Origin: Pseudovirgaria hyperparasitica | Lineage: Eukaryota | Length of the DNA stretch: 32,179 bases | Assembly (NCBI GenBank): GCA_010093815.1 | Contig: ML996600.1 | Reading direction: 5' to 3' (one strand) | Notes under the pieces: model-generated | Database searches by the model: none | What the model was told of the DNA's origin: nothing | The model's input: only the letters and a program-made list of their open reading frames with translations | Position numbers and translations under genes: made by a program | In this document: piece by piece, positions 7,715 through 32,179 of the stretch | Position numbering within the stretch: position 1 is the stretch's first letter | How the letters are laid out: every line of letters starts with the position of its first letter

Positions 7715-7774
7715 TCCGGAGTGGCGGAGTCACGGAGTGTCACTCCGGTCACTCCTTTGTCACTCCACTCCGGA
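7715..7774. repeat. Cluster of GGAGT/ACTCC units forming an imperfect palindrome
   Basis: TCCGGAGTGG (7715-7724) and CCACTCCGGA (7765-7774) enclose further GGAGT units and three GTCACTCC units. Confidence 0.7.
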
Positions 7775-7785
7775 GCGTATTAGCA

Positions 7786-8223
7786 TTACTTGCTTACCAA
7801 CTTCATCGAATTGATGGTTCTTAAATATGGGGAATCGCCATAGAGAGCCCTGTGGAGATTATGTACGAACAGAGACAGACTAACGTTGCTCTCTATGGTC
7901 TTCCGCCCATCGATTTCGGGGTCGTCGTTCCATCCGCCAACTGCAAGACAGACTTGGACATCGGGGCAATTCACTTTCAGGCCTAGGGACGCGCAGGCGA
8001 AGTCGAGCACTGGGGGGAGACTCTCGGTATACGGGTTGGGAACACAAGGCGCTAATGAGCCAGAGCCGGCAGCGACCCGTCGTTTTCTGGCAGCAAGTGC
8101 TTCCTCAAATGAAGTGCCTATCTTAGACATTATTGCATTAGTTCTCTCTTCTGCCAGCATGAAGGGCTTGGTAATATGATAAGAGCCCCATAGGACACAA
8201 GAAGACTTGGGTGGCAAAACCAA
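7786..8223 (-). pseudogene. Possible remnant of a GH18 chitinase N-terminal region
   Basis: LKVNCPDVQVCLAVGGWND...LFVHNL resembles the GH18 lK..p.vKv.lsiGGW....F..nl pattern. The catalytic DxxDxDxE motif is absent. Confidence 0.25.
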
Positions 8224-10430
8224 TAGCGATTCGACATTTCACTGTTCCCTTCGGCAAGGATTCTTTATTGACCAGATATCTACCTTGTGAATAGGTTCAT
8301 GGTCAACGACAAACTCAAAACATAAAGACCCCTTATATCTTCGAAAATTACCTTAGAGCGGATTATTATTACCTAGCTTAACTCAAAGTGTATAGGAACG
8401 CCTTCGCCTACTTGAAAGACACTCTCATGGGTGGGCTCTTGTTTGAAGTGAAGGTATACTTCATTGGCACTGCGCATGTAAGTTCACCAAATGCCTTGGT
8501 GATACGGCTGCACGTACGAAAAAAAAAGTTGGGATAGCCAACAATCAGGCCCGGTATTGTGTGGCAAGTATCGTATCCCGGGCCGACCTTCCTGAAGGCG
8601 TTTTCGGAGTAGTCTTTCCTGGCCCCTTGACTCCTCCCAGATATCAGACATCGAGATCCACCATCGTGTGCTCAGAGGAGATGATCAAGGTTGTTCAACT
8701 GATTCCAGGACGTGACAGTCTTCGAATCTTCCACGCTACAGATCTAACAGATTGTTTGAATAAAGATTAATACCTCCGATCACGTTTTCATTCCAAAAAG
8801 TTTCGAACATTTGTATTTGTCCGTATCTATTTCTGTGACGCACTTACCTAGGCTAAGGGGCCCGGACTCCCTTATAAAACCCGAGCTTACCCCTTATGAA
8901 TAATATTACTCTTGGTTATCAGGGCACAGATCACACCCCAGACGCAGTGTGGATCCGAATTTCACCGCGACCAAGAACAATGCTAGGGTTTTCACTAAGC
9001 CTTCCAATCAGCAAGGACATCGGTTACGTCTTAGCCAGCCATGGGGATCTGAAATCTGTTCCTTGCTCGCGAGGGGCATGCATCTGACGTGGCAGACTGG
9101 GTGCCCCATAGACGTGCCGGGGCCCCACGGTCTCGGCACGCGCCCGCAATGTGCACTTGACAAATTCATTCAAGGTGAGGTAGGCAGGGGTCCAGGTCAG
9201 CACGTTCGGTTCGCCAACGTTCCCGCGATATTAGGATATGTCAGCGACGCAGTTTAGGATATAGTAAATTAAGCTAGATTTTCTTCATTATAGGTCTACC
9301 TCGTATTGCTTGTGTTACATTGCCAATATTTATATAGTCTCAGAGCAAGTATCTCGATGGGCGCCGATACTTGACGCTCAATATTAAGGAGATTGTACTA
9401 GTAAGTTGTATACTGGTCTGCTTCCTCTAGCAGATCTTCCACGATCTCAGGGCATCCTAAAGAACCTCGACGTCGCGCGTCCGTCTGCCATCGCTGCTGC
9501 CGCTGCGAGATGCCTATGTGAGCTTGATCTCAAGCTGTGTAATTAGGTTAACTGTATCTCGTAGTCGATCGTTCAGCGATTGGGATCCGTTTGTCGGTTG
9601 TTTCGGAGTTTGCACAATTGCTGTCTCCTGGAGGCGTTATATGTTGGCACGGAATAAGATAGATAATCCCAAGGAATTCTTGCACATACCTCAAAGTTCT
9701 TGGAACAAGCTCTGATGGCGTGGAGCGTGTGACTATTATCGCTGTTCTCGTCTTTCGTGCGGTGTACACCGATAATACCAGCAAAATTGCATTTGTGACC
9801 TAGAGAGCTCGTGAGTATATTTTTCGATGCTCTACGCGACTAAGATTACATTCTGGCTGAGCGCCATCGTACTGGGGGCACTGGTGAGCATAATCTATAT
9901 AGTTAAGAAGCTTAGCGTACCTGTATCTTCGGGCGATGGCAGGTCTCACAGCTGCGATTCAAGGTGTTGGTCTCGGACGAATAGTCCTCAGGTGCAATAC
10001 ATGTCATAGTAGGGGAGGACTGTGCTGTAGACAGATGTGAGACTGTCTCTGCAAGAGGGACATCGATAGATATTAGTACGTAGAGATCTAAATCGGGACA
10101 CTTAATGGGGAAGACTTTGCCTCATCCAATCCTGCATTTGCTATAAGAGGAGACGGCTCAGCGGGTGACTTGAGCTTACCTTGATGGGATAGCTAGGCCA
10201 TCAGGAGAAATAGACCGATCAATCTTTACCCTTGTCACGACAGTAAATCGCCCCTCCTCGGGGGATCCGTTCACATACTTTTGCTCCAATTAAGCGCGCA
10301 GCTGATCTCTTTAGGAGGTTACGACCAGCTCGGCAGTCGAGGGTCCGCTACGTCCGGCTAGGCACATGTCTTGGTAGGAAATGTCATCCATCGTTAGCAT
10401 GTACATCCTCAGCTGGTAGAAAGTTACCTT

Positions 10431-15479: not shown

Positions 15480-16691
15480 GTGGTGGATCTTACGTCGAAA
15501 CCGGAGCTGGAAGAACGTCGTTTAGCGAAGCGGCGAAGGCTGGCTAAGCAGCGGGTAGAGAACCTCATACTCGATCCTGTATCCATGCCCAAGTCAACGC
15601 CTTTGCCAAGCCCTAGCAGCCAAGTTCCCTCTCCTAGAGCCAGCAACGGTCCTAGACCTGATTTTCCAGAGTGTAACGACAAAGGCGATGGTGCTGAATC
15701 CCCAGGCCTTTACTCCTCAAGACAATCCATCTCTCCTTTTGAAGGAACAGTGAGCGAACAAGATATCAATCCGGATTCAGACAGGCGTGAGAAGAGTAGA
15801 AAAGGCAGACGTAGTGAAGTTGGGGAAAGCCATAGGGACGAACTCAATCAGGTCGACGTGTCCTACGGAGCTTCAGCGACACCTCCTCAGCGACATAACC
15901 CTAGCAATCGTTCGGTCCAGGAGAGACCGCGCGGTCGACCACAGACTCATCTTAAACCACAGAATGGGAGCACAGTCTTTAGGAAGACATCACGACAACT
16001 AACATCACCCCCATCACAACAGCTATCTGGGCCAAGAGCGGATAGCACAGCACGGATCAGTCGGATCGGTCCCCCGCGAACCTTTTCCACAGGAGCAAAG
16101 GCAGCATATGATTCTAGTATCTACCGCGGAACCAGCGACTACGAGTTAATGGATATTGCGCATTACTATTGCGACGTACCGAATGACTCGCCTATTATTA
16201 CAGCAACCGTCTATTGTGCCGACGTAATGTCAGCATTGTATGCAAAGTCATCAGCGCTTAGATGGAACTTGCTTGGTAACAAAGGCGAAGTCATCCGAAC
16301 GATTAAGTTATCATCAGATTCATGGTTGGTAATAGGATACCGGCATGACGATTGCGGTGCGCCAAAATTATGTAGCGGTCGAGGCTCGATGCAGCGAAGC
16401 ACGGATAGGGAGACTGGCCGCCACAGTAATGCCATCAACTATGACGCCGTCCATCCAGAAACATACGGAAACGAGAAGTACGAGGATGAAGATGAAGACG
16501 TGAGCGACAATGGCTATATGCTCTCAGGCAAACGAACACATGTACCGTGGAAAGAGTCGGACGGACAGCGCTTACTGTCGTACAAGGACAAGATGGGCTT
16601 GGACTGGGATGACATAGTTTTTCGTTTCCCAGGTCGGTCGGTGGGCGCCGTAAAACTCCGCTACTACACATTGCACAAGAAGGATTCGTAA
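15480..16691 (+). CDS. Last exon of a low-complexity protein with a C-terminal Myb/SANT domain
   Basis: 403-codon open frame ending in KRTHVPWKESDGQRLLSYKDKMGLDWDDIVFRFPGRSVGAVKLRYYTL (W...L...W..I...FPGRS...K.RY, the Myb/SANT signature), preceded by an acidic patch. Confidence 0.75.
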   Translation: MVDLTSKPELEERRLAKRRRLAKQRVENLILDPVSMPKSTPLPSPSSQVPSPRASNGPRPDFPECNDKGDGAESPGLYSSRQSISPFEGTVSEQDINPDSDRREKSRKGRRSEVGESHRDELNQVDVSYGASATPPQRHNPSNRSVQERPRGRPQTHLKPQNGSTVFRKTSRQLTSPPSQQLSGPRADSTARISRIGPPRTFSTGAKAAYDSSIYRGTSDYELMDIAHYYCDVPNDSPIITATVYCADVMSALYAKSSALRWNLLGNKGEVIRTIKLSSDSWLVIGYRHDDCGAPKLCSGRGSMQRSTDRETGRHSNAINYDAVHPETYGNEKYEDEDEDVSDNGYMLSGKRTHVPWKESDGQRLLSYKDKMGLDWDDIVFRFPGRSVGAVKLRYYTLHKKDS

Positions 16692-17536
16692 GGCTATTGC
16701 GATGTCCTCGACCTACCACTTCCCACCAAGATCGAACTCTCGCCTTGTTGAGGTTGGAGCATTTACGGGTGAAAAGGAGCGTACGGTGGATGCTAAGCTT
16801 TGCTATCTCGTTTTTACTAGATTATGCATAGACTTGGCGCAAAGAGTTATATAACTCCGTCCCACTTCGTCGCTCGTCTCTCTTCAGGTTATGTCGATTT
16901 TGATTAGTTTCAATAGTCGGGCATCTTCACGGTGCTGCCATCTGCCTCTAGGGATTCCTGCTTGAGATCTGGACTTCTTTCTATAGCCTTTTGTGGCATG
17001 ATGCAAATCCCTGGAAATGTTAGGCAAAGCTCGGCTACCAGAAGTTCTATGAATAACGGAGGTCCCGATTCCAGACCCCTGAGGGTGCCAACGGGGTCCG
17101 AAACCGGCCCCGATGCCTAGTCATCCCCTGTCATCGTTTAGTATCTATAGCTTAGTATGGCAGTTGTTCGCTCCTCTACCAACAGGAACTGTTTCTGTAA
17201 GTCGAGCACTCTCCCCATAATACCGCCGAGGATGCGAACGTGAAAGGTTCTTGTGGAAGCACAACGGCTCTGGAGCCATCACTTGCAACTGCATTGAAAA
17301 AGTTTCTTCTCTGTCAAAGCGCCCGCGCCTGCCATTGCCTGACAGCTGCTTTAAAACGACCTTGCGGCGCCAAGTAATGCGTAGAGCTAAATTTAGTCGA
17401 TGAATCAGACTAATCAGCGCTCGTTTACTGGCGCCGATAGAAGTGTGCTCGCCATCTGGGCCAATAAGGCTTGCGGGAATAACGTCGATACTAATCATCA
17501 GCCTTGGCGTCAAGTGCTGTTAGTCCCTATCCTCCA

Positions 17537-17668
17537 TGTAGGAATTTAGGTAGATTTTACGTGGTAAACTTGATTGCCCGTTCTATCTAGTCTACTTATC
17601 TACTATATATACCTAGCCTACGCTGAGTAAGATTTGAGTAATGGGGATTACCTAATATGAATCCCACA
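17537..17668 (-). repeat. 3' LTR (132 bp)
   Basis: TGTAGGAAT...ATCCCACA on the plus strand, identical to 26612-26743 except C17651 vs T26726. It is adjacent to the PPT. Confidence 0.97.
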
Positions 17669-17680
17669 TCTTCCCCCTCC
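17669..17680 (-). other. Polypurine tract
   Basis: Minus-strand GGAGGGGGAAGA lies immediately 5' of the 3' LTR. Confidence 0.9.
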
Positions 17681-17936
17681 TGATTATACGAGCTCCTGCG
17701 AGGCGTCAAAGACGATTGACGGAGTCTAACTCATATAATAAAGAGAGGTAGGCGTGTAAAATCTCTTCAACGCTAGGCCATATCCAGTAACACGTCGCGT
17801 AAGGGGGGGTGGTCCGAGCTTGTTTTGGCGCTGAATAGTCACCTTCACCATTGACGTATCCTGCCAACTTCAACCTCACATTACTTGACCATTTCGCCTT
17901 TTTCTTGACCTTTTTCTATACCAAACTCGTTTGACA

Positions 17937-20179
17937 ATGTCTGAAAACACTGCTGAAACTCCTGCGCGCTCAGAAATTACCCCAATTGATGTTGTGATCT
18001 CAGGTATGTGAACTTCAGCTTCACCTTTTCTTTTTAACTTGACCTTCCTACAGCGGACATGGTTATAAATGATGACCTTCGTCATGCCTTTTCGCGAGGT
18101 GGGATAGACGAGAGGTCGCTTGACGACATGATGGCAGAACATGCCCGCGCTCCCGATAGTAGGTCAAGTTCTTTAGTAGTTCTAGCCTAGGCTGACCTAT
18201 ACAGTTCGTGAGAGCTATTTAGAGATGGCTCATGGCTACCTGTATCCACGGGGTCCTTGGGGTTCGCCATTTTTCCGCAATCCAGGCCTAGAAAACGAGG
18301 CTTCGAATCAACTGAATGAAGAGAACAACCAGGCCCTTGGAGCTGAGGTTCCACAGGTTAAGATCTTGGTCCCTGTGATTCCGCAGGAGTTGGCAATCGC
18401 CATTGACGAGACTGTTCCTGAAACAGAAGGTAGTTTCGCTCAGTCCTTCTCTTTTCAAAAACTTTATTAACCTGTGTGGTTCCTATAGGTCAAGTTATAG
18501 ATCACGATTCTGCGCCAACTGATCTTGACGAGCCTTTTGAAACTCCTACCAAGCCTAACAGGTTCGAGAATCTTTCAGATGACTCTGACGATGTCTTTGA
18601 TCCTGAAAAGGAAGGAGCTTTGAGCTCTGGGCTATCAGACCTTGACAGCGATGCGATAATGGAAATTGACGAGCTTGATGAAGCAGTTGCTCTCAAGGCA
18701 GGCAAGAAAGGTGAATCTCTAAGCCTTAATTGGGTTTTCAATTTCCTAATATCATCATAGGCCTTCGTCCTAAGGCACCTAGGACTCCTAAGAAGGTCCG
18801 CAAGGCCGTGAGGACTCTGTCAAAGTTGTTTGACAGCCCTAAAACTCGCTCCATGACTTCCTCATTGGCCTTAACAGGTCTCGGAAGTCCTAGCAAGATC
18901 GTGAAGAAGGCTCCTATCAAGCGTAAGGGGTCTGCAGCTTCTCGCAAGGTCAGCGCGGCATCAGAGACTGCGGCAACTGAACTTGACAGCTATGGCGGTG
19001 CCGAGATCATGGTGAAAGGCCGGTCAGGCCTCAGTGTTCATCCTGACTACTACTTCTTTTCGGGGAAATCGGCAGAGTTCGCGCAGTGGTTGGCCCGTCG
19101 GCGTAGGTCTTCTTCCTGTTAATTGCCTTTGACGGTCAGCTAACTTGACCTAGGGGAGATGTTCTCGGATCCTCCCATCTCAGTGCCGTTCTGCCAGGAA
19201 TTCGTTGATGGCTTGATCAAGGCGTATACTGGCGGTCAACATGCCTCGATTCCGAAGGATCTGCTTCCGTTTTGTATGACGGATAAGTTTGATGACTGCT
19301 GCTATCCCCAGGATATCGCAGCAACAGTAGGACAGATCTTTCGGGATCCCGAGAAACGACTGGATGGGAAGTATCCGTATACCATTCCTGCCGTCCTAGG
19401 CATGATGGCTCGTGGCGCGTTCTGGCACTTCGGTGATAGCGCCTGTGGATCCTGTTCTGCCGGCAAAGGTGTCTTCAAGGAGTGTGTGCAGCTTTTTCCC
19501 AATGGGTTCCTACTGTTTGAAGGTACTTGTTTGAATTGTTTCCACCAAGGAAATGGGAAATTCTGCAGCATGTCACGTCGTAAGTCACTCCCTTATGTTG
19601 TCAAAGGCCTTTGACGGGGCTAATTGTGTATCCACAGTATACCGGGGCGAGCGTAACGTCATTGAGAAGCTTCAGCGTGCCGAACAGTCTTCTTTTGTGG
19701 AAAAGACCAAGTCCACTGGCAGGTATTCGGCTGCCCAGCTTCGTCAAAAGAAGTTGTCAGGTCTCAAGGAGACCAGGTCAAACTCTGCGGCTGGTCCTTC
19801 GCTCGTGAGTCAGGTTTTCTATCTCGTGTAATCTCTAGCTAATTAAAAGGTCACAGCCATGATAGAATGGATGTATCACGGCGGTCCAGAGGTTCTCGTT
19901 CCTGGCTATGATGATATCATGCCTCCCGACCCGAGTATCATCCCCACTCGTCCTATACAGGACATAGATGACGAAGGTCTTCCGCTTGACGAGGCTGTTG
20001 AGGGTTGGTTTGCTCTTCCGACAAACGCGTTTGGCGAGGCTGGTCGTACGCCTCAAGGGTTGCCATGCCGGTTCCTGATCGAGGATGGCATGCCCAAGGA
20101 GAGTAAGAAGGTCCTGGTGAAGTTCGCGAAGAATATGAACTTCAGTCGTCGTAAATCCGCTTTGAGGGTCCAGGGCTAG
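17937..20179 (+). CDS. Antisense accessory gene inside the retrotransposon, 8 predicted exons, ~627 aa, with a Cys-rich DUF3716-like module
   Basis: Predicted exons are 17937-18003, 18054-18158, 18205-18429, 18489-18710, 18761-19102, 19154-19579, 19638-19804 and 19850-20179. Introns are 45-59 nt GT-AG, most with GCTRAY/CCTAAT-type branch points, and they join the six short plus-strand ORFs into one frame. Exon 6 has ACGSCSAGKGVFKECV...GTCLNCFHQGNGKFCS. Intron 7 boundaries are ambiguous. Confidence 0.85.
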
Positions 20180-20448
20180 GTCGACGACGTCTCTTTTGTG
20201 TTGATACCCCTTCTCCTTGAGCGTCAAAGGGCGTTGACGGCTTTTCTTTTGTGTCTGGTTGGGTTGCGGTTCTTAGGTAGCGATTTTAGACTTGAATAGT
20301 ATCATCACAAGTCCACATCTTCTTTCTTTGACCTCCTGGTGATTCCTATGGCTCGTCAACCTTCGTTGACGGCCATGTGTATGAGTAATGAGTGAATGGG
20401 AGATCAATAATGGTGTGTACATAGGAGATATTCAAGGAAAGACTGAGG

Positions 20449-23400
20449 TTAGTTGTAATCTAAGCTTTCTTGTAACAACTTAGAAGGTAATATCTTTTTC
20501 CTTAGGGAGTACCTCTCTCCCTCTGATCTGTCAACTCGTCTTGACGCGCTGGCTACAGCCGCTTGGGTTTCTCTATTGCGTTCATCCGTATAGGATCGCT
20601 TTCTTTTCCGCATATGAGGTTTGCTTTCTACAAGGTCCCTTATAGGGACGTCCGAGTCTATTAGAGGTTGTTCGGTCACTTCGTCAACCTCTTTTGGCAC
20701 TTCTTCAGTGTCTGTATCTATATCCATACTCGTAGGATTCTCATTTTCAGTTTGGACATTCTTGTCTAAGTCCATTCGTATATCATCAAACTCGTCTCCT
20801 GAGCTTGTTTCTTCAGGCAATTCATCCTGTATCGGTTCTGCAGTGGCTTCCTCTGCCATGTCAATCTCGTTTGACGGGTCATCTGCTGTATTCTCGTTTA
20901 TCGTTTGGGCTTCCTCTGCCCTTGGAGCATCGTAGCTTCTTTCGATGTTGACTATCGGCGGTTGCATCGCTCCGCTGTTCTCACCTTGTTCTTCCGGTGT
21001 GTCTCTTGGTTCGTCAAAGACGATTGGCACTGGTGCGGCCGACGTAGCTGTAGTAGCTTTTTGTTTACGTCGATTTTTCGCATCGGTAAGCCTGATTTGT
21101 CGCGCGATATTTGCGTCTATCGAGCTCTCCCCTACCAAGAACGAACGTACGCCCTCGTACGTCAACTCTCGTTGACTCCGTAGCTGTTGCAGCCGGTTCC
21201 ACTCCTTTTTAGGAAGGGAGGATAGAGTCGTCCAGTGTAGGGTCGGTTTTTCTTTCTCTAAAACCTTCTCGATGTCTGGTGAGTGAGGTGCCACTTGGTT
21301 CCGGATTTCCTCGGACATCTGTGAGTCAATTTCCTGTCTAGTCCAGAAGTCCTCTAGCTTGTCAATGCCCCGGGCTGTTATTAATCTATTGCCGTGTACA
21401 AGGTGCCGTAAGATACGCCCGTTCGGTGTTTCGAGGGCATATGTTCCCAAAGGATGTTGCATGTGAACCTTGTATGGACCTAAGTAGTTCGTTTTGAACT
21501 TCGTTTTCTGCTCGTTCTTTAGCAAAACGATTTGACCGACAGGTAGTCGCGCCTGATCTTCAGGTTTGAGTCGAGTCGGGTCTATGAGGTCTCGGCGGGC
21601 GGCTTCCACAAGCAGCTCACTAAGCGCTAGTGTTCTGGCGTGTTGGACTTTCTTGACTCGCTTGATGAGTTCGTCAAAGGACATTGACTCATCCTTTTCC
21701 CCAGGAATGTTCCCTGGTAAGTTGGGGTGTTGTCCATACACCAGATAATATGGACTAACTCCCATACTTCTATGACGGCGAATCCTTGTGGCGAAAACGG
21801 CGGCTGGTAGGTACGTGTCCCAGTTTGTCACCAGCTCGCCTATACACATACGGGTAAGTATGCCTCCTAATGTTCCATTGAGGCGCTCGACTTTCCCGTT
21901 TGTGCGAGGGTGATAAGGGGTTGTGAGCTTGTGTTCTGTCTTGAGGATGCGTAGCAATGCGCCAACGACTCTTGACAGAAACTGTTGACCATTGTCTGAG
22001 GTTAGTGCGGCGGGAGGTCCGAAGTCTATGAAGATCTTCTCATAAATGAACCTTGCGACGGACTCCGCAGTCGCCTCAGGGACTGCCTGTGCAATAGGCC
22101 ATCCCGTTGTGTAGTCAATTGCTGTTATCACCCAGCTATTGCCGTTGTGTGTGGTGGGGAGTACGCCTATAAAGTCGATACCCCATTCTTCAAAGGGTGC
22201 TCGGCGTGCGACCCTATGAAACTGTCTCTCATGTTGTGGATTTGGTGGCACTCGTTGCGCCAATTGACATTGACGGCAGTTGCGAGCGACCACTTCCACG
22301 TCTTTCTTCATTCTAAACCACCAGCCTTGTTTTTCTAGGGCTCCTAGTAGTCCGGGCCACATGAAGTGACCGAATTGACGGTGTATTGTTTCTACCAGCG
22401 AAGTACGGTATTGTTCGGGGATGTACGGCGCTGAGTTTTCCGACAAATCTTCTTGACTATCATCAAAATCCCATAGCTTGTGTCGTAGTTTACCTTCGTG
22501 GTCCAGGCGTAGCCGGGACAGGATTTCGGGGGAGACTTTTAGCACATGCTCTGTCGGTTCCGCTCCTTTAAGGAACTCAATGATTTGGGCGACGAGAGTG
22601 TGTTCGTCAACCTTAGTTGACGGCATTGCGGAGATCTCGCCTTGAAAGTCCGGCCTCCTACTGATGGCGTCAGGTACCACTGCCCTGGATCCTGGGCGAT
22701 ATTTTATGTCTAGATCGAAGCTTCCGAACTCATCAATCCATCTACCTACACGGCCTCCTTGTTCCTTGGCAGTCTTGAGGAACTGTAGGCTATGGTGGTC
22801 GGTGAGGATCGTGGTCTTCTTCGTTCCTAGCAAGTATCCCCAAGTGCGTAGGGCGTGTTTGATGGCAAGAAGTTCTTTTTCGTGCACTGGGTAGTTGAGC
22901 TCGGCGCCGTTGAGCTTCCTCCCGTCAAACGCGATTGGCTGATTCTGCTTGTCGGCGTCTTCCTGGCAGATCACCATACCGATCGCGTAGTTGCTCGCAT
23001 CCGTTTCGATGCAGAAGGGCTTTGTTTCATCTGGCTGAGCCAGGACTGGCTCGGAACATAGGGCATTCTTAAGCGTTTTGAAGGCAAACGCTGTTGACAG
23101 TGTCCATCTAATGGGCCTATACTTCTGCTTTCGAATGAGCGGGTCTGCTTCTTTAAGAAGGTCTGTCAAAGGTGCCGCGATGCTTGTAAATCCCCTAATG
23201 TACCTTCGGTAGTAGTTCGCTAGGCCCAAGAACTGTCGAACTTCGCTAACGTTCGTAGGTTCCGGCCATTCGCGGATGGCCTGAATCTTATCCTTCATAG
23301 GACGGAGTTGTCCTCGCGAGACGTGGTGTCCGCAGAAGTCAACTTCGGCCTGGCCGAAGCTACACTTCTCCGGATTGGCGAGCAGGCGATATTCGCGGAG

Positions 23401-24804
23401 TAAGGCAAGTACTTTTGACAGCACTCTTGCGTGTTCCTCCATGGTTTCGGAAAAGATAATGATATCGTCCAAGTATACAACCACGGATTTGTGTAATAGA
23501 GGTTGAAGGACTCTGTTCATCATCTTTTGGAATGTGGCAGGTGCGTTTGACAGACCGAACGGCATTACCTTGAACTCGTATTTGCCGTAGATCGTGTTGA
23601 AGGCGGTTTTCGGGACGTCTTCATTGTCAACACGTACTTGCCAGAATCCTGAGGTCAAATCCATCTTGGTAAACACGGTTGACTGGCCGAAGGCACGTAG
23701 GCACTCATCAATGCGTGGGAGAGGTGTCGTATCTTTACGCGTGAGTGTGTTGAGTGCCCTATAATCGATACACATTCGCCATTTGCCTCCGGGCTTGGGC
23801 ACGAAAAGTACTGGGCTGCCCCAGGCACTTCCTGATTCTTGAATCAGGCCTCGCTTGATTAGCTCCTGTATCTGTCTCTGTTGTTCTGCGATCTGTTCTA
23901 AGGAGAGACGATAGGCTGCGTTGTTGATAGGTCGGCCATCTCCTGTGTCTATTTTGTGGTCCCATTGTCTTGAAGGAGGTAGCCCTTCGGGCAGGTCTTC
24001 CTTGAAAACGTCCTTATACTTCGTCAAAACGGGTTGCAGTATTGGGTCAGGTGCATGCGGTACAGGAGGAGTGTCCTTTCTAACGAACCACATTACACCC
24101 TGTTCACAGCCGTTCGGGTATTGTTTCCGTGCTTGACTAGCAGTGAGGACGTTTAGCACTTGTTCTCCTTGTAAGTCAATGTCGATTGACGCAGGAATCC
24201 CTTTTAGAAGGTACTCCTTGGTTCGTCCTCGGGCTGCTGGCTTCTTAATTACTAGGGAATGAGACCTCCATGAGATATCGGGGTCCCATTCGTAGAGCCA
24301 TTCGTATCCTAGAATCAGATCGTAGCCTTTGAGGTCGAGCACTCTCGCGGAGACTTCGCAAGTGAAGCTTTCCATGCGTAGGGGGATCTTCACAACTTCT
24401 CGACTTGTCATGAGGGGTCCTGACGGAAGTTTGACACGTATTGCGGGAGCAGGTTGTGGCACCAGCTTCAGACGCCTGGCAACCTTCGTTGACATATACG
24501 TTCTATCAGCCCCACAGTCGATGAGTACTGAAACCTTCTGAGGGTGGACTTCTCCTGCGTAAGCTTTGAGTTCTAGCAACTGTCTGCCGATGGAGTTTAG
24601 TTGACAGAGGCGGTCGTCGACGGCGTGCGTCAACTCCTCTTGACACTGGCGAGCACTCTCTAGCGATTCGCAAAGCGCGTTAATGTGCTCGTAGTCCCAT
24701 GTGTTTACCTCCTTTTCATCGGAATTGTCAGTGCAGAAGCTCTCTTCGTCGCTCGTGGTGTGTTCTGTGTCCACTACGGGCGACTGGCTTTTGGGGGCTC
24801 TTCG
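20449..24804 (-). CDS. pol: Pol polyprotein (aspartic protease, RT, RNase H, integrase with GPY motif, acidic tail)
   Basis: Motifs are LIDCGAD (PR); WRMCIDYR, MPFGL and YLDDII (RT); ETDAS and HEKELLAI (RH); HRQFGH..CRQC, GIDF, SDNG and VERLN (IN); and YLGPYKV. The frame opens after TGA at 24807-24805 and has no ATG before the protease active site, so it is probably reached by frameshifting. Confidence 0.97.
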   Translation of the reverse strand, partial: RRAPKSQSPVVDTEHTTSDEESFCTDNSDEKEVNTWDYEHINALCESLESARQCQEELTHAVDDRLCQLNSIGRQLLELKAYAGEVHPQKVSVLIDCGADRTYMSTKVARRLKLVPQPAPAIRVKLPSGPLMTSREVVKIPLRMESFTCEVSARVLDLKGYDLILGYEWLYEWDPDISWRSHSLVIKKPAARGRTKEYLLKGIPASIDIDLQGEQVLNVLTASQARKQYPNGCEQGVMWFVRKDTPPVPHAPDPILQPVLTKYKDVFKEDLPEGLPPSRQWDHKIDTGDGRPINNAAYRLSLEQIAEQQRQIQELIKRGLIQESGSAWGSPVLFVPKPGGKWRMCIDYRALNTLTRKDTTPLPRIDECLRAFGQSTVFTKMDLTSGFWQVRVDNEDVPKTAFNTIYGKYEFKVMPFGLSNAPATFQKMMNRVLQPLLHKSVVVYLDDIIIFSETMEEHARVLSKVLALLREYRLLANPEKCSFGQAEVDFCGHHVSRGQLRPMKDKIQAIREWPEPTNVSEVRQFLGLANYYRRYIRGFTSIAAPLTDLLKEADPLIRKQKYRPIRWTLSTAFAFKTLKNALCSEPVLAQPDETKPFCIETDASNYAIGMVICQEDADKQNQPIAFDGRKLNGAELNYPVHEKELLAIKHALRTWGYLLGTKKTTILTDHHSLQFLKTAKEQGGRVGRWIDEFGSFDLDIKYRPGSRAVVPDAISRRPDFQGEISAMPSTKVDEHTLVAQIIEFLKGAEPTEHVLKVSPEILSRLRLDHEGKLRHKLWDFDDSQEDLSENSAPYIPEQYRTSLVETIHRQFGHFMWPGLLGALEKQGWWFRMKKDVEVVARNCRQCQLAQRVPPNPQHERQFHRVARRAPFEEWGIDFIGVLPTTHNGNSWVITAIDYTTGWPIAQAVPEATAESVARFIYEKIFIDFGPPAALTSDNGQQFLSRVVGALLRILKTEHKLTTPYHPRTNGKVERLNGTLGGILTRMCIGELVTNWDTYLPAAVFATRIRRHRSMGVSPYYLVYGQHPNLPGNIPGEKDESMSFDELIKRVKKVQHARTLALSELLVEAARRDLIDPTRLKPEDQARLPVGQIVLLKNEQKTKFKTNYLGPYKVHMQHPLGTYALETPNGRILRHLVHGNRLITARGIDKLEDFWTRQEIDSQMSEEIRNQVAPHSPDIEKVLEKEKPTLHWTTLSSLPKKEWNRLQQLRSQRELTYEGVRSFLVGESSIDANIARQIRLTDAKNRRKQKATTATSAAPVPIVFDEPRDTPEEQGENSGAMQPPIVNIERSYDAPRAEEAQTINENTADDPSNEIDMAEEATAEPIQDELPEETSSGDEFDDIRMDLDKNVQTENENPTSMDIDTDTEEVPKEVDEVTEQPLIDSDVPIRDLVESKPHMRKRKRSYTDERNRETQAAVASASRRVDRSEGERYSLRKKILPSKLLQESLDYN
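24748..24795 (-). other. Predicted -1 ribosomal frameshift signal (slippery C_CCA_AAA plus downstream hairpin)
   Basis: Heptamer 24795-24789 is in the gag frame, and a -1 slip gives CCC AAA AGC in the pol frame. Four nt downstream lies the stem GTCGC-c-CGT-a-GTG/CAC-c-ACG-a-GCGAC (24784-24748), which contains the gag stop. Confidence 0.75.
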
Positions 24805-26051
24805 TCAAAGACGCTTGCCGTGTCTCCCTCTGCGGTGACGTGGGCCAGTTTGCTTGGAGTCGGATTTTCGGGGCAGAATCTTGAGATGTGTCCTGTTTTC
24901 TTGCAGATAAAGCATTCTCGAGTCTCGTTAAGCGTTCTTGACGAATTTCCTTGGTATCTACCACGGCCTCGGCCTCGACTCCAGCCTCTGCCGCGGCCTC
25001 GGCTGTTCCACTGGCGCTTTACGAAGGCGTGGAGCTTGCCTTCGTCTCCAGAGAAGTCGCCTAGGTCATCATCGCGGGTGTATAAATCCTCAGGAGGCTC
25101 GAACTCTTCGGGTTCTTCGTCCTCGTCTGGATTATACATGGCATTAAGGCGATGATTAGCTTCCCGTCTGTGGTATTCGCTCTTGGAGTGGGTGTATAGG
25201 GCTTCTTCTAGCCTTTTTACCCATGGGCACCAGTCCCCTAGCATCTGAGGAGGAAAGGGCTGCTTTTCGATTTCTCGTTGAACCTCTGATTTGAGGGCAC
25301 TTAGTATCCTGCGTTGTATCTCGTATTCTGTAGGCATGGGTCGTAGTAGTCGAGCTTTCTCGACAATGACGTCGATGAGCCTCGAGGCAGACCCATAACG
25401 ATGTTGACTTAGGTTCTCCCATTCCTTTCGGCGTTGTTCTGGGCGATTGGTCGAGATGTACGTCTTGCGTATGACGTCTAGGAAGTCTCCTAGAGTTTGA
25501 GGACTACCCGGGCTATTACGGCCGCGTGCCTCCATGAGGCTACGCCAAAGGGTACGGACATGTTTTGAGGTATATGTCCCGCAGATTTGTAGTTTCTCAA
25601 AATCAGGTATAGCCTCTTGGCGTTCCACTGACTCTACGGTATTAATCCATTCCTGGATAGATAGGCACCATTCCTCGCAGGCGTCGTCCCTGATTTCTCC
25701 TGAGTATACTTCGGGGGCTCGAAGAGGGATGCGGCCTCTGCGTGGGGGCGCAACCGTTCCTGAGCGGCCGGGGTTATTGAGGAGGAGGTTGTCAAAGTCT
25801 CTTGCCAGTTCCTCCCGGGTGACGTGATCGTTCCTCACCTGTGACTCGAGTCGGTTGGCACATATGTTGATAAGTGCCACTGTACGAGCGTCTCCAGTGA
25901 GGTCTCTCGTGGCCGGATCGGCATCGAAGAGGGCGTTAAGCACGTCAACGGTTATTGACGGTGCGTTACGAGCGCGTCCTGTGCTCTGGGGAGCGGTTGC
26001 TCCATCCATGGGGACGTCGCCGTCACGATCAGGGTTCTGGGGAAGAGACAT
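24774..26051 (-). CDS. gag: Gag protein with RG-rich segment and CCHC zinc knuckle
   Basis: 425-aa ATG ORF directly upstream of pol, with PEVYSG, a capsid-like helical region, RGRGRGWSRGRGRGR and CFICKKTGHISRFC (CX2CX4HX4C). Confidence 0.95.
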   Translation of the reverse strand: MSLPQNPDRDGDVPMDGATAPQSTGRARNAPSITVDVLNALFDADPATRDLTGDARTVALINICANRLESQVRNDHVTREELARDFDNLLLNNPGRSGTVAPPRRGRIPLRAPEVYSGEIRDDACEEWCLSIQEWINTVESVERQEAIPDFEKLQICGTYTSKHVRTLWRSLMEARGRNSPGSPQTLGDFLDVIRKTYISTNRPEQRRKEWENLSQHRYGSASRLIDVIVEKARLLRPMPTEYEIQRRILSALKSEVQREIEKQPFPPQMLGDWCPWVKRLEEALYTHSKSEYHRREANHRLNAMYNPDEDEEPEEFEPPEDLYTRDDDLGDFSGDEGKLHAFVKRQWNSRGRGRGWSRGRGRGRYQGNSSRTLNETRECFICKKTGHISRFCPENPTPSKLAHVTAEGDTASVFDEEPPKASRP

Positions 26052-26600
26052 TTTGGTACAACTTGTTAGAGACAGGGGAATTCTGAGGTGGTGATCATCT
26101 TCCGAGTTGGAATTTGGTCGTCAACTTATGTTGACGAGTGGTTGGGAGGTACATTGCGGGTACAGGGAGCGTCAATGAAAAAAAATTCGTTTCCTTAGTC
26201 TTTGCTCGTTTTGTGATATGTCACTACCCGTTGTGACTATTGAACTGGTCGTCAAAGTTTGTTGCCGTAATTTGATTCTCTGAATAGTTGATGTTTCGGC
26301 AGGGATATCCCATCGTAGGCATGACTCGTTCTTATGGCGCGCCTGTATCCGCTGAGTTGTTGGAATTGTCGTCAAACGTTGTTGCCGTAATTTGTTTTTC
26401 CGGGACTATGGCATGTCCCTTCGTGGTAGTGTTTTTCCTGTTGGACTATAGGTTCCTTTGCCGTTGTCTTCGGCGGAGGTGTTTAATGTCGTGGGTGTCA
26501 ATTGCGTTTGACGAGTTGCCTCGTGTAAGGGGAGATATAGCTACCCCTTAGGAGGGGTCGCCGAGGCGACGGCCTCCCTAGGAGGACAAAAACCAGCTTT

Positions 26601-26609
26601 CAGCTACCA
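26601..26609 (-). other. Primer binding site, tRNA-iMet type
   Basis: Minus-strand TGGTAGCTG starts 2 nt after the 5' LTR. It is complementary to a tRNA 3' end ...CAGCUACCA and shares TGGTAGC with the iMet PBS of Ty1/Ty3. Confidence 0.75.
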
Positions 26610-26611
26610 GA

Positions 26612-26743
26612 TGTAGGAATTTAGGTAGATTTTACGTGGTAAACTTGATTGCCCGTTCTATCTAGTCTACTTATCTACTATATATACCTAGCCTACGCTG
26701 AGTAAGATTTGAGTAATGGGGATTATCTAATATGAATCCCACA
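26612..26743 (-). repeat. 5' LTR (132 bp)
   Basis: Direct repeat of 17537-17668 (131/132 identical), containing a TATATATA box and followed on the minus strand by the PBS. Confidence 0.97.
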
Positions 26744-27318
26744 TGAGGTAGCAGAGATGGTCACATGACAGAGCACTTTGGACGTCGATTTAGGCTAGTG
26801 GGCCCTGCGCTGAATCTACTGCAGGGAAAGTGAGACCGTTGATCGCCTACTGTAGCCAAGACGCAGGGGCTAGATTTGCGCAGCCCGCAGATTCTCCGAT
26901 AAGGCTTGCGCTGTCTAAAACGGTATATTAGACCCTGAGAAGCTCAACTCAAGAAATTCGTAGGCTCTGGCTTTGAATTAGGATTTGAGCACCGCGAAGA
27001 CAGATCTTGGACTGCAGCTCTCGGGATAGACTGTTCATACGCCAATCTACTGTGCATTGTAATTCTAAGTACACTGCTTAGATATAGTGGATGTTATCGG
27101 TCTCCCAAAGCAAGCCGTCGGTAGCAACGATTCCTTAATTCAGAGATTATAGGCTACGCAGAAGGTTCACGCAGATAAGATTAAGCGTGGGTATAGCTTA
27201 GACCGTTAGCTATCTATCCCGAGAGTATCATGCTCAGGCTGACGTTGTGGAATTTATTATCTGGTGTTGAAATTCTGCATCTCGGTACACAGGGAATCTC
27301 GCGACGTAGGGAGGGACG

Positions 27319-28157
27319 TTAAACTTCATCCTGCCTTCTAGATATGTGTTTTGACCCCGCACTTGAACTTGTCCTCCATTGAAGAATTGGGAAGACTAGT
27401 GTTGCTGGCAGTATAGATAGTGCTCGAAGAACCGTACGAATGGAGCTCGCATTACTTGAGAACCAAATAAGGATCAAGAGCGAGTCTCTCCGGTGCTGAC
27501 TGAGCATCAGTAGGGATGCGAGGACAACAATGACGTTTGCATAGACAAGTTCCAGCAGTGTGCCAGAAATGATACACATCATACCCATCTCTGCTGTCAC
27601 AGTGCAGATGAAGGAAAATGCACCCTCCGAAGGCATTTCTACCTTGCTAAGAACCATAAGCAGAGTTTTATATGGTCCACAGACGTACTAACTAGGCACA
27701 TAGCGTGATAAGGACTAAAAGCCGGCTGCTTGCGACAGCATATGGTAGGATACGAGGAATGGATAGCTGTCCTTTGTTGCCGTTGGTGGTAAGAGACTAT
27801 GCCTATGTTAGCTTTGTCGCCACTTGTCTGCGCATAGAGCTTTACCTGTCTCAAGGTACTGACGGTGAGGTGTGCTAGGCTCAGGTACCATATCATCTGA
27901 GAGTACTCAGGCTCATCAAGTATAAGATAGCTAAAAAGTGTGCTGAGCCCGCTGCAGGTCATGCAGATAGCTGCAAGTAACATATTGAGCATTGGCTGCA
28001 CGATTTTCAGCTGACTGGTCGCTGCGTGTCGGAATCGAAGGATGAGAGCCATTCCACACTGGATAAGCAGTAAGAGAAATAGAGAAGAATATACCATGCA
28101 ATCGAACACAGAACATAGAAAGAGCGGGCCGAACAGTATTGAGACATCTTGCGACAT
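27319..28157 (-). pseudogene. Multi-pass membrane protein gene or remnant (DUF6534-like fungal family suspected)
   Basis: It starts MSQDVSILFGPLFLCSVFDCMVYSS, with several hydrophobic helices spread over two overlapping frames. A likely intron donor GTAAAG follows TLRQ. I could not build a clean gene model. Confidence 0.35.
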
Positions 28158-29627: not shown

Positions 29628-29728
29628 CATTCCAACCGAAAGTGAGGATTCGACATAGACCGACCAGGCTGGATAGAGACTGCTTCGTTGGCTATTTTTA
29701 GTAAACTAAGACTACGCCTCGGTAAGAT

Positions 29729-29786
29729 CATGGCTCAGTAAGGGCATGGCTCAGTAAGGGCATGGCTCAGTAAGGGCATGGCTCAG
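29729..29786 (+). repeat. 16-bp tandem repeat CATGGCTCAGTAAGGG x3.6
   Basis: Three perfect units (29729-29776) plus a partial CATGGCTCAG. Confidence 0.95.
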
Positions 29787-30897: not shown

Positions 30898-32179
30898 GTT
30901 CGTCAACCTTAGTTGACGGCATTGCGGAGATCTCGCCTTGAAAGTCTGGCTTCCTACTGATCGCGTTAGGTACTACTGCCTTGGATACTCGGCCTCCTTG
31001 TCCTTGGCGGTCTTAAGGAACTGTAGGCTGTGGTGATCGGTGAGGATCGTGGTCTTCTTCGTTACTAGCAAGTATCCCCAAGTTCGTAGGGCGTGTTTGA
31101 TAGCAAGAAGTTCTTTTTCGTGTACTGGGTAGTTGAGCTCGGCGCCATTGAGATTTCTCCCGTCAAACGCGATTGGCTGGTTCTGCTTGTCGGCATCTTC
31201 TTGGCAGATCACCATGCCGATCGCGTAGTTGCTTGCGTCCGTTTCAATGCAGAAGGGTTTCGTTTCATCTGGCTGAGCAAGGACTGGCTCGGAACATAGG
31301 GCATTCTTAAGGGTTTTGAAGGCAAACGCTGTTGACAGCGTCCATCTGATGGGCCTGTACTTCTGCTTTCGGATGAGCGGGTCTGCTTCTTTGAGAAGGT
31401 CTGTCAAAGGTGCTGCGATGCTTGTAAATCCCCTAATGTACCTTCGGTAGTAGTTTGCTAGGCCAAGGAACTGTCGAACTTCGCTAACGTTCGTGGGTTC
31501 CGGCCATTCACGGATAGCCTGAAACTTATCTTTCATAGGACGAAGTTGTCCTTGCGAGACGTGGTGTCCGCAGAAGTCAACTTCAGCCTGGCCGAAGCTA
31601 AATTTCTCCGGATTGGCAAGCAAACGATATTCGCGGAGTAAGACAAGTACTTTTGACAGCACTCTCACATGTTCTTCCATGGTTTCGGAAAAGATAATGA
31701 TATCGTCCAAGTACACAACCACGGATTTGTGTAATAGAGGTTGAAGGACTCTGTTCATCATCTTTTGGAATGTGGCAGGTGCGCTTGACAGACCGAACGG
31801 CATTACCTTAAACTCGTATTTGCCGTAGACCGTGTTGAAAGCGGTTTTCGGGACGTCTTCATTGTTAATACGTACTTGCCAGAATCCTGAGGTTAAGTCC
31901 ATCTTGGTAAACACTGTTGACTGGCCGAAGGCACGTAGGGAAGACTCGAGTCGGTTGGCACATATGTTAATAAGTGCCATCGTACGAGCGTCTCCAGTGA
32001 GGTCTCTCGTGGCCGGATCAGCACTGAGAAGTGCGGTAAGCACGTCAACATTCATTGACGGAGCGTTACGGGCGCGTCCCGTACTTTGGGGAGCGGTTGC
32101 TCCGTCCATAGGGACGTCGCCGTCGCGATCGGGGTTCTGGGGAAGAGACATCTCGGTATAACTTGTTAGGGAAAGGGGA
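30898..32179 (-). mobile_element. Internally deleted, 3'-truncated second copy of the same Ty3/Gypsy family (continues past the window edge)
   Basis: 30898-31939 matches ~22602-23701 (RT-RH) and 31943-32179 matches ~25843-26079 (gag 5' end and leader). There is a further ~58-bp deletion and a 1-bp deletion near 30990-31003. Confidence 0.95.
30973..32151 (-). pseudogene. In-frame Gag(N-terminal 70 aa)-RT/RNase H fusion ORF created by deletion
   Basis: MSLPQNPDR...ANRLES-S-LRAFGQSTVF...YLDD...ETDAS...LTDHHSLQFL, 392 aa. It lacks the capsid core, zinc knuckle, protease, RT N-terminus and integrase. Confidence 0.85.

What the first reader, a model, noticed from the sequence alone, without database searches (positions are those of the whole stretch)
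17704..26513. Element-wide spaced palindrome GTCAA-N6-TTGAC written into UTRs, introns and coding sequence
Seen: 15 perfect copies in 9.2 kb (starts 17705, 18819, 19600, 20223, 20355, 20530, 20860, 21161, 21673, 22606, 24175, 24629, 25944, 26120, 26497), often extended to CGTCAA..TTGACG. One-mismatch versions with the same 6-nt spacer start at about 18392, 18514, 18972, 19118, 19743, 20683, 21013, 21961, 22259, 22442, 22924, 23404, 24478, 24804, 24927, 25791, 26251 and 26371. With 10 fixed bases at ~50% GC, about 0.01 perfect hits are expected in 9.2 kb. Spacer sequence varies freely but spacer length is fixed. The motif occurs in different reading frames (STKVD, SRRVD, SNEID, SIDID, SITVD vs CQEELT, SQRELT), so it is not a peptide repeat. 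By eye I found none in the non-element DNA. Inference: fixed spacing with a free spacer is the signature of a binding site for a dimeric dsDNA-binding protein. The TTGAC half-site equals the WRKY W-box core, which may be coincidental.
Basis: seen in the sequence. Interest (0 to 1): 0.92.

Follow-up and report, generated by a model that had tools for sequence, protein, structure and literature searches.

The report
Periodic palindrome lattice across a fungal retrotransposon
A fungal Ty3/gypsy retrotransposon carries the spaced palindrome GTCAA-N6-TTGAC about once every 158 bases along its whole interior, genes included, which looks like a lattice of docking sites for a paired DNA-binding protein and has no described counterpart that I could find.

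Summary
GTCAA-N6-TTGAC occurs 17 times perfectly in the window against 0.04 expected, and 39 times with up to one mismatch against 0.96. Only the 6-base spacer is enriched. All sites lie in one 9.2-kb Ty3/gypsy LTR retrotransposon (minus strand, 17537-26743) or in a second, internally deleted copy (30898-32179).

No interval is under 120 bp, 21 of 33 fall in 120-185 bp, and the sites fit a 158-bp lattice.

The motif is written over gag, pol, UTRs, and the exons and introns of an antisense, spliced accessory gene encoding a DUF3716 cysteine-rich protein. Synonymous-codon shuffles do not reproduce it. Half-sites degenerate independently and symmetrically, with no compensatory pairing. That favours a dimeric dsDNA-binding protein over an RNA hairpin.

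Twenty-one related gypsy loci and 120 Pol relatives lack the array, and none of the 21 loci has the accessory gene.

The binder and the function are inferred, not shown.

The parts
17537..17668 (-). 3' LTR of the element (132 nt, TG..CA)
   Evidence: Direct repeat 17536-17669 / 26611-26744 at 99% identity. No target-site duplication: CTCCA to the left, TGAGG to the right.
17669..17681 (-). Polypurine tract abutting the 3' LTR (purine run on the minus strand)
   Evidence: Read directly from the sequence. Its role as a PPT is inferred from position.
17705..26512 (.). Lattice of Y-GTCAA-N6-TTGAC-R sites. There are 15 perfect sites, 19 with one mismatch and about 11 with two. The best-fit period is 157.9 bp, and 44 of 57 lattice positions are occupied by a site with up to two mismatches.
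17937..19862 (+). Accessory gene antisense to gag-pol. It has 8 exons and 7 GT..AG introns of 46-59 nt: 18004-18053, 18159-18204, 18430-18488, 18711-18760, 19103-19153, 19580-19637 and 19805-19856. The product is 519 aa: an acidic N-terminal half, a basic middle part, and a six-cysteine DUF3716 domain in exon 19154-19579.
   Evidence: The spliced joints appear in contigs of runs X3 and X4 and not in X1 or X2. Pfam PF12511 scores 33.1 bits against a cut-off of 22.
20449..24774 (-). pol (protease, reverse transcriptase, RNase H, integrase; long acidic C-terminal tail)
   Evidence: Pfam hits. The best relatives are 57% identical or less.
24774..26051 (-). gag (425 aa). The pol frame is open from 24804, so it overlaps the end of gag. 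Expression of pol by frameshift is inferred.
   Evidence: ORFs. The zinc-knuckle hit is weak and below the cut-off (19.4 bits against 20.8).
26591..26609 (-). Putative primer-binding site (starts TGG, 2 nt from the 5' LTR, on the minus strand)
   Evidence: Sequence. The tRNA was not identified, so this is an inference.
26612..26743 (-). 5' LTR
30898..32179 (-). Second, internally deleted copy of the element, cut by the window's end. It is 88-93% identical to copy 1 and has 2 perfect and 3 one-mismatch sites at homologous places.
   Evidence: The same deletion junction (23701 to 25843) appears in contigs of X1 and X3.

Best explanation
The palindromes are binding sites on double-stranded DNA for a symmetric (dimeric) sequence-specific protein. 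The retrotransposon has accumulated them by point substitution along its whole interior, at about one site per 158 bp, roughly one per nucleosome repeat.

Shown:
- The enrichment, the strict 6-bp spacer and the regular spacing.
- Placement across coding and non-coding DNA of both strands' genes.
- A protein-like half-site specificity, G-[T>G>C]-C-A-A.
- Absence of the array in relatives.

Inferred:
- The sites are bound.
- They benefit the element. A host-defence target would be lost, not built into conserved genes.
- The spacing serves a chromatin-scale purpose. A bound dimer at each nucleosome-length could phase or mark the element's chromatin. It could either keep the element free of silencing (heterochromatin, RIP) or impose a regulated latent state.

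My preferred binder is the element's own antisense-encoded, basic, six-cysteine DUF3716 protein, at about 0.3. A recruited host factor is about equally likely. The confidence given is for the core claim only: a DNA-level lattice of protein-binding sites selected by the element.
For: Enrichment and spacer:
- 17 perfect copies against 0.04 expected; 39 against 0.96 with up to one mismatch.
- Only N6 is enriched among spacers 0-15.
- Among all 5-mer inverted dyads with spacers 0-14 in the window, this one is the sole outlier.

Not explained by the proteins:
- Synonymous-codon shuffles give 0.09 perfect and 1.02 one-mismatch sites in pol, against 7 and 16 observed.
- Sites sit in less conserved Pol columns (mean top-residue frequency 0.42 against 0.55).
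- One-mismatch variants occur where a conserved residue forbids a perfect site, for example invariant Pro (CCA) at 22924.

Spacing:
- The minimum interval is 120 bp and 21 of 33 intervals lie in 120-185 bp. Random placement reached neither value in 0 of 20000 trials.
- The best period is 157.9 bp with resultant 0.67, the top peak between 20 and 1000 bp. Uniform placement reached it in 0 of 1000 trials.

DNA rather than RNA:
- 17 of 19 single mismatches fall at half-site position 2, in both arms alike and uncompensated.
- There is no excess complementarity in flanks or spacer.

Selection and lineage specificity:
- Half-site positions changed at 1 of 70 against 105 of 1228 elsewhere between the two copies, p=0.039.
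- The peptide footprint of the motif is 6.9 per 1000 aa in this Pol, against a mean of 0.5 and a maximum of 2.5 in 120 relatives.
- It is the top outlier among 121 proteins, 11 spacers and all half-sites.
- 0 of 21 related gypsy loci has this or any other element-wide palindromic dyad array at the DNA level.

Candidate binder:
- The accessory gene is transcribed and spliced.
- It has a basic stretch and a conserved C-x2-C...C...C-x2-C...C domain.
- None of the 21 array-less relatives has a homologue by tblastn.
- DUF3716 also occurs in accessory genes of an unrelated DNA transposon (PMC8232023, passages read).
Against: - No binding data exist.
- DUF3716 has no known function. Its model (pLDDT 73) matched no solved fold, and its profile matched no PDB sequence. 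Nothing shows that it binds DNA.
- The link between accessory gene and array rests on one family with both and 21 relatives with neither. Many of those loci are partial.
- Nine of 33 intervals are 120-132 bp, too short to hold a 147-bp nucleosome between two occupied sites. A strict 'one site per linker' model therefore does not fit; 'one site per nucleosome length' does.
- Shuffling the order of the observed intervals reaches the same lattice coherence in 50 of 1000 trials. The long-range phase thus follows mostly from the local spacing rule.
- There is no GC-content signal between sites.
- Host-genome density could not be measured, because no genome is held.
Confidence: 0.55

Rival explanations
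1. The sites are bound by a host protein, not an element protein. The candidate would be a general chromatin or transcription factor that the element recruits along its length, for example to stay open, to be transcribed, or to be targeted to a nuclear compartment.
For: All the evidence for a DNA-level dimer site applies equally. Nothing shows that DUF3716 binds DNA.
Against: The 21.7 kb of non-element DNA in the window, which contains several genes, has no site with up to one mismatch. This is a small sample. Array and accessory gene are both absent from the 21 related loci, although those elements live in other hosts.
Confidence: 0.25
2. The palindromes act in the genomic RNA as short hairpins (5-7 bp stem, 4-6 nt loop) or as intermolecular pairing points. 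They would serve as dispersed packaging or dimerisation signals for Gag.
For: The motif is a perfect inverted repeat, so it can fold in transcripts of either strand. About 45-57 dispersed sites per genome would resemble the dispersed packaging signals of some RNA viruses, as I recall them.
Against: - The stem sequence is fixed and the loop is free, the reverse of what protein-recognised hairpins usually show.
- 11 of 19 single mismatches break the pair on both strands. That count is my own classification of the sites listed.
- Wobble-preserving changes are no commoner than chance.
- Only 1 of 11 two-mismatch sites is compensated.
- Pairs next to the arms show no excess complementarity.
- The sites continue through the introns and exons of the antisense gene with the same spacing.
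Confidence: 0.12
3. The sites are targets of a sequence-specific enzyme acting on DNA (methyltransferase, nuclease or recombinase) rather than of a stably bound regulator. They would form, for example, a self-marking system.
For: Bipartite sites with a fixed, free spacer are typical of such enzymes too (recalled). The regular coverage would suit marking the whole element.
Against: The element encodes a DDE integrase and no recombinase, methylase or nuclease domain detectable by Pfam. The spacers differ between sites, which excludes site-to-site tyrosine-recombinase exchange.
Confidence: 0.06
4. The pattern is chance, base composition, a peptide repeat or a hidden tandem repeat.
For: None found.
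Against: - Shuffle controls.
- Two reading frames are used, in the genes of both strands.
- Tandem Repeats Finder finds no array inside the element.
- The 5' UTR segments between sites align poorly, at 58% mean column identity.
Confidence: 0.01

Closest known systems
VANC anti-silencing proteins and their motif arrays in Arabidopsis VANDAL21/VANDAL6 transposons (PMC5735166; passages read)
   Same: A transposon family carries many copies of a short motif that is rare elsewhere. An accessory, non-transposase protein encoded by the same element binds the motif and changes the element's chromatin. Motif density gives the specificity, and related families differ.
   Different: VANC motifs are asymmetric 8-9-mers in one orientation. 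They are confined to non-coding regions and multiplied by tandem repeat formation. Here the motif is a spaced palindrome written by point substitutions through coding sequence, non-repetitive, at a regular spacing of about 158 bp, in a fungal LTR retrotransposon. Binding is not shown and there is no VANC homology.
Papillomavirus E2 binding sites (ACC-N6-GGT) and the EBNA1 site arrays of Epstein-Barr virus oriP
   Same: Spaced palindromes with a fixed-length, free-sequence spacer. They are bound by a dimer encoded by the same genome, are present in multiple copies on that genome, and are used for regulation and genome maintenance.
   Different: They belong to episomal DNA viruses.
CENP-B boxes in alpha-satellite and other satellite arrays with one protein site per nucleosome-length monomer (recalled)
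   Same: One sequence-specific site per roughly 150-170 bp, associated with phased nucleosomes.
   Different: In satellites the period comes from tandem duplication of a monomer. Here the intervening DNA is unique coding sequence, so each site arose separately.
Su(Hw) site cluster of the Drosophila gypsy element, and the palindromic motif clusters of plant Sireviruses (recalled)
   Same: LTR retrotransposons that carry repeated protein-binding or palindromic motifs.
   Different: Those are local clusters in untranslated regions, not element-wide and not periodic.

Membership tests
Ty3/gypsy (Metaviridae) LTR retrotransposon | pol domain order protease, reverse transcriptase, RNase H, integrase | tested here: met
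   Pfam hits at residues 74-160, 325-485, 557-683, 785-840 and 859-956.
Ty3/gypsy (Metaviridae) LTR retrotransposon | Flanking LTRs (TG..CA) with an adjacent primer-binding site and polypurine tract | tested here: met
   132-nt LTRs at 99% identity. A TGG-starting stretch lies 2 nt from the 5' LTR, and a purine run abuts the 3' LTR.
Ty3/gypsy (Metaviridae) LTR retrotransposon | Target-site duplication | tested here: not met
   The flanks are CTCCA and TGAGG. This may reflect recombination between copies and does not affect the classification.
DUF3716 (PF12511) proteins | Match to the Pfam model above its gathering score; conserved cysteines | tested here: met
   33.1 bits against a cut-off of 22. 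C97, C110, C125, C128 and C137 are invariant and C100 nearly so across 16 sequences. The nearest ESM Atlas clusters are 90-100% DUF3716 and Ascomycota.
W-box / WRKY system | TTGAC followed by C or T (recalled definition) | tested here: not met
   The next base is G in 19, A in 11, T in 4 and C in 0 of 34 sites.
W-box / WRKY system | A WRKY-domain protein | tested here: not met
   No WRKY hit in any element ORF. The host genome was not available.
VANC-type transposon anti-silencing system | Motif highly enriched in the protein's own element family and rare elsewhere | tested here: met
   within the limits of one window and 21 related loci.
VANC-type transposon anti-silencing system | The element-encoded accessory protein binds the motif and removes silencing marks | not testable with these tools
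   Needs EMSA or ChIP and methylation or H3K9me3 maps.
VANC-type transposon anti-silencing system | [quoted passage not shown] | tested here: not met
   There is no tandem repeat in the element. 20 of 34 sites lie in gag or pol and 5 more in accessory-gene exons.
Gal4-type Zn2Cys6 binuclear cluster (considered because of the six-cysteine pattern and because such proteins bind spaced palindromes as dimers; recalled) | Match to the Zn_clus family | tested here: not met
   Only DUF3716 was reported at E up to 1. There was no PDB sequence or fold match.
Satellite-type nucleosome-periodic site arrays (CENP-B-box kind) | Period generated by tandemly repeated monomers | tested here: not met
   By contrast, the metagenome loci recovered with the motif-pair pattern were such tandem repeats, with conserved spacers.

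The most novel reading that the evidence does not exclude
The retrotransposon specifies its own chromatin. Its antisense-encoded DUF3716 protein binds as a dimer to one site per nucleosome repeat along the whole element, forming a phased, element-private nucleoprotein array. That array shields the element from the fungal genome-defence machinery (heterochromatin or repeat-induced point mutation) or holds it in a regulated latent state. DUF3716, found in accessory genes of unrelated fungal transposons, would then be a new class of transposon-borne sequence-specific DNA-binding domain.
Probability: 0.2. Interest if true: 0.95.

Novelty: new variant of a known kind. Interest (0 to 1): 0.85.

Why it matters
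Transposons are known to carry local clusters of binding sites. I could not find a described case of a lattice of about 45-57 palindromic sites built base by base through conserved genes at nucleosome-scale spacing.

They were read at listing level, except for passages of PMC11481914, PMC5735166, PMC8232023 and bioRxiv 10.1101/2021.04.16.439968.

Why it would matter:
- The element has paid a clear cost in protein sequence. Motif-bearing Pol columns match the family consensus in 28% of cases, against 47% elsewhere. That implies strong selection for the sites.
- If the sites organise chromatin, this is a natural, compact system for asking how a DNA sequence can dictate a nucleosome array or evade fungal genome defence.
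- It would also give a first function to DUF3716, a widespread ascomycete domain linked to transposons.

Tried and rejected
- **Whole genome and earlier findings.** Neither was available.
- **Sequencing runs.** No listed holder is on record as RNA. X3 and X4 carry spliced contigs, which I read as RNA-derived. Contig depths were not used to rank expression.
- **Homodimer prediction of the DUF3716 domain.** No verdict: score 0.01 against a mark of 0.32. This is not evidence either way.
- **Fold and sequence searches of the DUF3716 model.** No match by Foldseek, VIA-align wide or the PDB sequence profile.
- **HMMER against 1.84 billion representatives.** Only 17 weak hits. Two long ones (P0013, P0014) are spurious bacterial proteins.
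- **Pol search in viral contigs with the single protein.** No relatives.
- **Motif-pair pattern scans.**
  - Viral contigs gave 16 loci: phage or tandem-repeat sites.
These were mostly tandem satellites with conserved spacers, and none was homologous to the element.
- **GC profile around sites.** No pattern.
- **Helical phasing of short intervals.** Only a weak hint: R 0.47 near 10.6 bp, reached by 180 of 5000 random sets.
- **MoIsw2 'palindromic motifs' in Magnaporthe transposons** (PMC11481914, passages). The motif sequences are not in the text and the supplements were not opened, so relevance is unknown.
- **Rejected readings.** W-box, bZIP CRE, tyrosine-recombinase core sites, peptide repeat, tandem repeat.


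Full report
**1. The observation**

The pattern GTCAA-N6-TTGAC occurs 17 times perfectly in the 32,179-base window, against a mean of 0.04 in 100 dinucleotide-preserving shuffles. Two more are at 30902 and 32044.

With up to one mismatch there are 39 matches against 0.96 expected. Five lie in 30902-32059.

A scan of spacers 0 to 15 gave perfect hits only at N6 (17; every other length 0). With up to one mismatch it gave 39 at N6 and 0-4 elsewhere. Among all 5-mer inverted or direct dyads with spacers 0-14, this is the only outlier in the window.

Outside the two element copies (about 21.7 kb) there is no site with up to one mismatch. There are 6 with up to two, roughly the chance number by my arithmetic. 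No whole genome is held, so host density could not be tested further.

**2. What carries it**

The sites fill the interior of one Ty3/gypsy LTR retrotransposon lying on the minus strand.
- Its 132-nt LTRs (17537-17668 and 26612-26743) are 99% identical and end TG..CA.
- A TGG-starting stretch sits 2 nt inside the 5' LTR, and a purine run abuts the 3' LTR.
- gag is 24774-26051, with a weak, sub-threshold zinc knuckle.
- pol is 20449-24774, with protease, RT, RNase H and integrase.
- No target-site duplication is present.
- A second copy, 88-93% identical and carrying an internal deletion, runs from 30898 to the window's end.

The closest Pol relatives in 5.8 billion proteins are only 57%, 48% and 47% identical. 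The named ones are ascomycetes: Aureobasidium, Penicillium, Ascosphaera.

**3. An antisense, spliced accessory gene**

Between the pol stop and the 3' LTR, contigs of runs X3 and X4 skip seven 46-59-nt stretches with GT..AG ends on the plus strand. Contigs of X1 and X2 do not. I read X3 and X4 as RNA-derived, although the record does not say so.

Joined by these introns, an ATG at 17937 opens a 519-codon frame ending at 19862. The product has:
- an acidic N-terminal half;
- a basic middle part;
- a C-terminal domain in exon 19154-19579 that matches Pfam DUF3716 (33.1 bits, cut-off 22). Six cysteines are conserved across 16 aligned members.

The gene's orientation and introns mean that it is carried intact through the element's sense-strand RNA.

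DUF3716 has no known function. It also occurs in two accessory genes of an unrelated DNA transposon (IS3EU superfamily, per that paper) in Zymoseptoria (PMC8232023, passages).

Motif sites lie upstream of the ATG (17705), in exons (18392, 18514, 18819, 18972, 19743), in two introns (19118, 19600) and after the stop (20223, 20355).

**4. The motif is selected as nucleic acid, not as peptide**

In gag-pol, 16 sites use the frame that reads S/P-x-x-[VFIL]-D and 4 use the frame Q-x-x-L-T. The third frame would contain TGA. The plus-strand gene uses the same frames.

Shuffling synonymous codons while keeping the proteins gives 0.09 perfect and 1.02 one-mismatch sites in pol, against 7 and 16 observed. 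In gag it gives 0 and 0.07, against 1 and 4.

In an alignment with 40 relatives, motif-bearing Pol columns are less conserved (mean top-residue frequency 0.42 against 0.55). The query matches the consensus there in 28% of columns, against 47% elsewhere. Where a residue is invariant, for example Pro at 22924, the site keeps a mismatch rather than change it.

Between the two copies in the window, 1 of 70 half-site positions differs, against 105 of 1228 other aligned positions (Fisher p=0.039). Spacers change freely, at 5 of 42 positions.

**5.

Intervals between the 34 sites with up to one mismatch are never below 120 bp. Twenty-one of 33 lie in 120-185 bp, and the rest are near multiples (288-321, 480-512, 687-864). 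In 20,000 random placements, none reached either the minimum interval or the count in that range.

The positions fit a lattice of period 157.9 bp with resultant length 0.67. This is the highest peak between 20 and 1000 bp, and none of 1000 uniform placements reached it. Shuffling the order of the observed intervals reaches it in 50 of 1000 trials. The long-range phase therefore follows largely from the local spacing rule.

With sites of up to two mismatches, 44 of 57 lattice positions are filled.

There is no tandem repeat in the element. The 5' UTR segments between sites share little beyond the motif. The period is thus not inherited from duplicated units.

Nucleosome repeat lengths of 161-172 bp were reported for four ascomycetes (bioRxiv 10.1101/2021.04.16.439968, passages). 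A period of 158 bp is of that order. However, 9 of 33 intervals (120-132 bp) are too short for a full nucleosome between two occupied sites.

A hint of about 10.6-bp quantisation of the short intervals is weak: 180 of 5000 random sets reach it.

**6. DNA site or RNA hairpin?**

The consensus is Y-GTCAA-N6-TTGAC-R. Of 19 single mismatches, 17 are at half-site position 2 (T>G 9, T>C 6, T>A 2) and 2 at position 3, in both arms alike. Positions 1, 4 and 5 never vary. By my classification of the list, these changes are not compensated on the other arm, and 11 of 19 break the pair on either strand. Only 1 of 11 two-mismatch sites is compensated.

The pairs flanking the arms and within the spacer are no more complementary than independent base preferences predict (for example 15 observed against 15.6 expected for pair 0/17).

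This is the behaviour of a protein's half-site specificity on duplex DNA, with half-site centres one helical turn apart. It is not the behaviour of a conserved stem.

**7. Relatives lack it**

- The peptide footprint of the motif is 6.9 per 1000 aa in this Pol, against a mean of 0.5 and a maximum of 2.5 in 120 relatives.
- I tested, for each of 121 Pol proteins, every 5-mer half-site and spacers 0-10 for codon-compatible palindromes. The query's GTCAA/N6 came out as the top outlier (9 against 0.43 expected). Nothing comparable appeared in any relative. This is a weak proxy.
- At the DNA level, 21 related gypsy loci were recovered from misbinned genome contigs and viral contigs (27-44% Pol identity; several partial). 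They have 0 perfect and 0-1 one-mismatch sites, and no other element-wide palindromic dyad.
- The single exception, L152, is a local tandem repeat of five identical units downstream of pol.
- None of the 21 has a homologue of the accessory protein by tblastn.

Array and accessory gene are therefore both peculiar to this family. That is compatible with a functional link but does not prove one.

**8. The candidate binder**

The DUF3716 exon has only 17 weak relatives among 1.84 billion representatives, with a best E-value of 1.3e-07. An AlphaFold model built on 16 sequences is moderately confident over the cysteine-rich part (mean pLDDT 73, with 82-92 over residues 61-140). It matches no solved fold and no PDB sequence profile.

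The six-cysteine spacing recalls the Gal4-type binuclear cluster, whose members bind spaced palindromes as dimers (recalled). Pfam does not support membership.

**9. Mechanism proposed**

Shown:
- a lineage-specific, selected, strictly spaced palindrome placed at regular intervals of about 158 bp over an entire retrotransposon;
- the half-site degeneracy pattern of a protein-DNA interface.

Inferred:
- a dimeric protein binds each site;
- the element benefits, since it built the sites into its own conserved genes;
- the spacing reflects one bound dimer per nucleosome length, acting on the element's chromatin.

My odds for the binder are about 0.3 for the DUF3716 protein, about 0.25 for a recruited host factor, and the rest undetermined. 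Whether the effect is anti-silencing, protection from repeat-induced mutation, or self-imposed latency cannot be told from sequence. Other copies in the same genome show mostly C>T and G>A differences.

**10. Comparison and novelty**

The nearest described system is VANC and its motif arrays in Arabidopsis VANDAL transposons (PMC5735166). It shares the logic: the element's own accessory protein, its own motif, and specificity through density. It differs in motif type, in location (non-coding only), in origin (tandem repeats) and in the lack of periodicity.

Papillomavirus E2 sites, EBNA1 arrays, CENP-B boxes and the gypsy Su(Hw) cluster share single features (all recalled).

Six full-text searches, including the motif string itself, found no description of such a lattice.

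I rate it a new variant of a known kind, namely transposon-borne binding-site arrays. Its element-wide, in-gene, nucleosome-scale periodicity appears to be new.

Noticed in passing
window 30898-32179 (and joint 23701 to 25843): A second copy of the element with a 2.1-kb internal deletion joining pol to gag. The same junction appears in contigs of runs X1 and X3, so the deleted form is a real genomic variant. It keeps the motif at homologous places.
   Followed up: partly
window 16500-27800 (table 1): Differences between this copy and other copies in the same genome are dominated by transitions (in X1: C>T 31, G>A 24, A>G 20, T>C 12). AT-rich loose ends occur at 21509 and 22376. This suggests RIP-like mutation of some copies.
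   Followed up: no
window 16500-18000: The spliced contigs of X3 and X4 run without a break from the upstream flank through the 3' LTR into the accessory gene, and continue unspliced into pol (to 22631 in X3). The gene's own promoter and 3' end are therefore undefined. The transcript may be read-through from the upstream gene or an assembly of overlapping transcripts.
   Followed up: no
window 17532-17536 and 26744-26748: No target-site duplication flanks the element (CTCCA against TGAGG), although the LTRs are 99% identical. This may reflect recombination between neighbouring copies.
   Followed up: no
window 19835-20272 (minus strand): A 145-codon stop-to-stop frame lies downstream of pol on the element's sense strand, with no Pfam match. 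It overlaps the 3' end of the antisense gene. Whether it is coding is unknown.
   Followed up: partly
window 15480-16691 (plus strand): A flanking ORF of 403 aa has a weak, sub-threshold Myb-like hit (20.3 bits, cut-off 24.4).
   Followed up: no
window 29718-29786 and 5236-5311: Short tandem repeats outside the element: a 16-nt unit with 4.3 copies, and a 24-nt unit with 2.5 copies.
   Followed up: no
L152 7460-7756: A distant gypsy relative (30% Pol identity) has five identical copies of CGTCACCCCTGACG in a tandem repeat of about 70 bp just downstream of pol. The half-site is related, but this is a local non-coding tandem array of the classic kind.
   Followed up: partly
L012 (66-kb viral contig), 360-10154: Eight copies of a fuller 16-bp palindrome (mostly GTCAACCCGGGTTGAC) are scattered over 10 kb of a phage-like contig. 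This is probably an unrelated regulator's operator set.
   Followed up: no
window 17705-26512: Short site-to-site intervals cluster near 120, 131, 142, 153, 164 and 175 bp. This is a weak hint of helical-turn quantisation (R 0.47 at about 10.6 bp; 180 of 5000 random sets reach it).
   Followed up: partly
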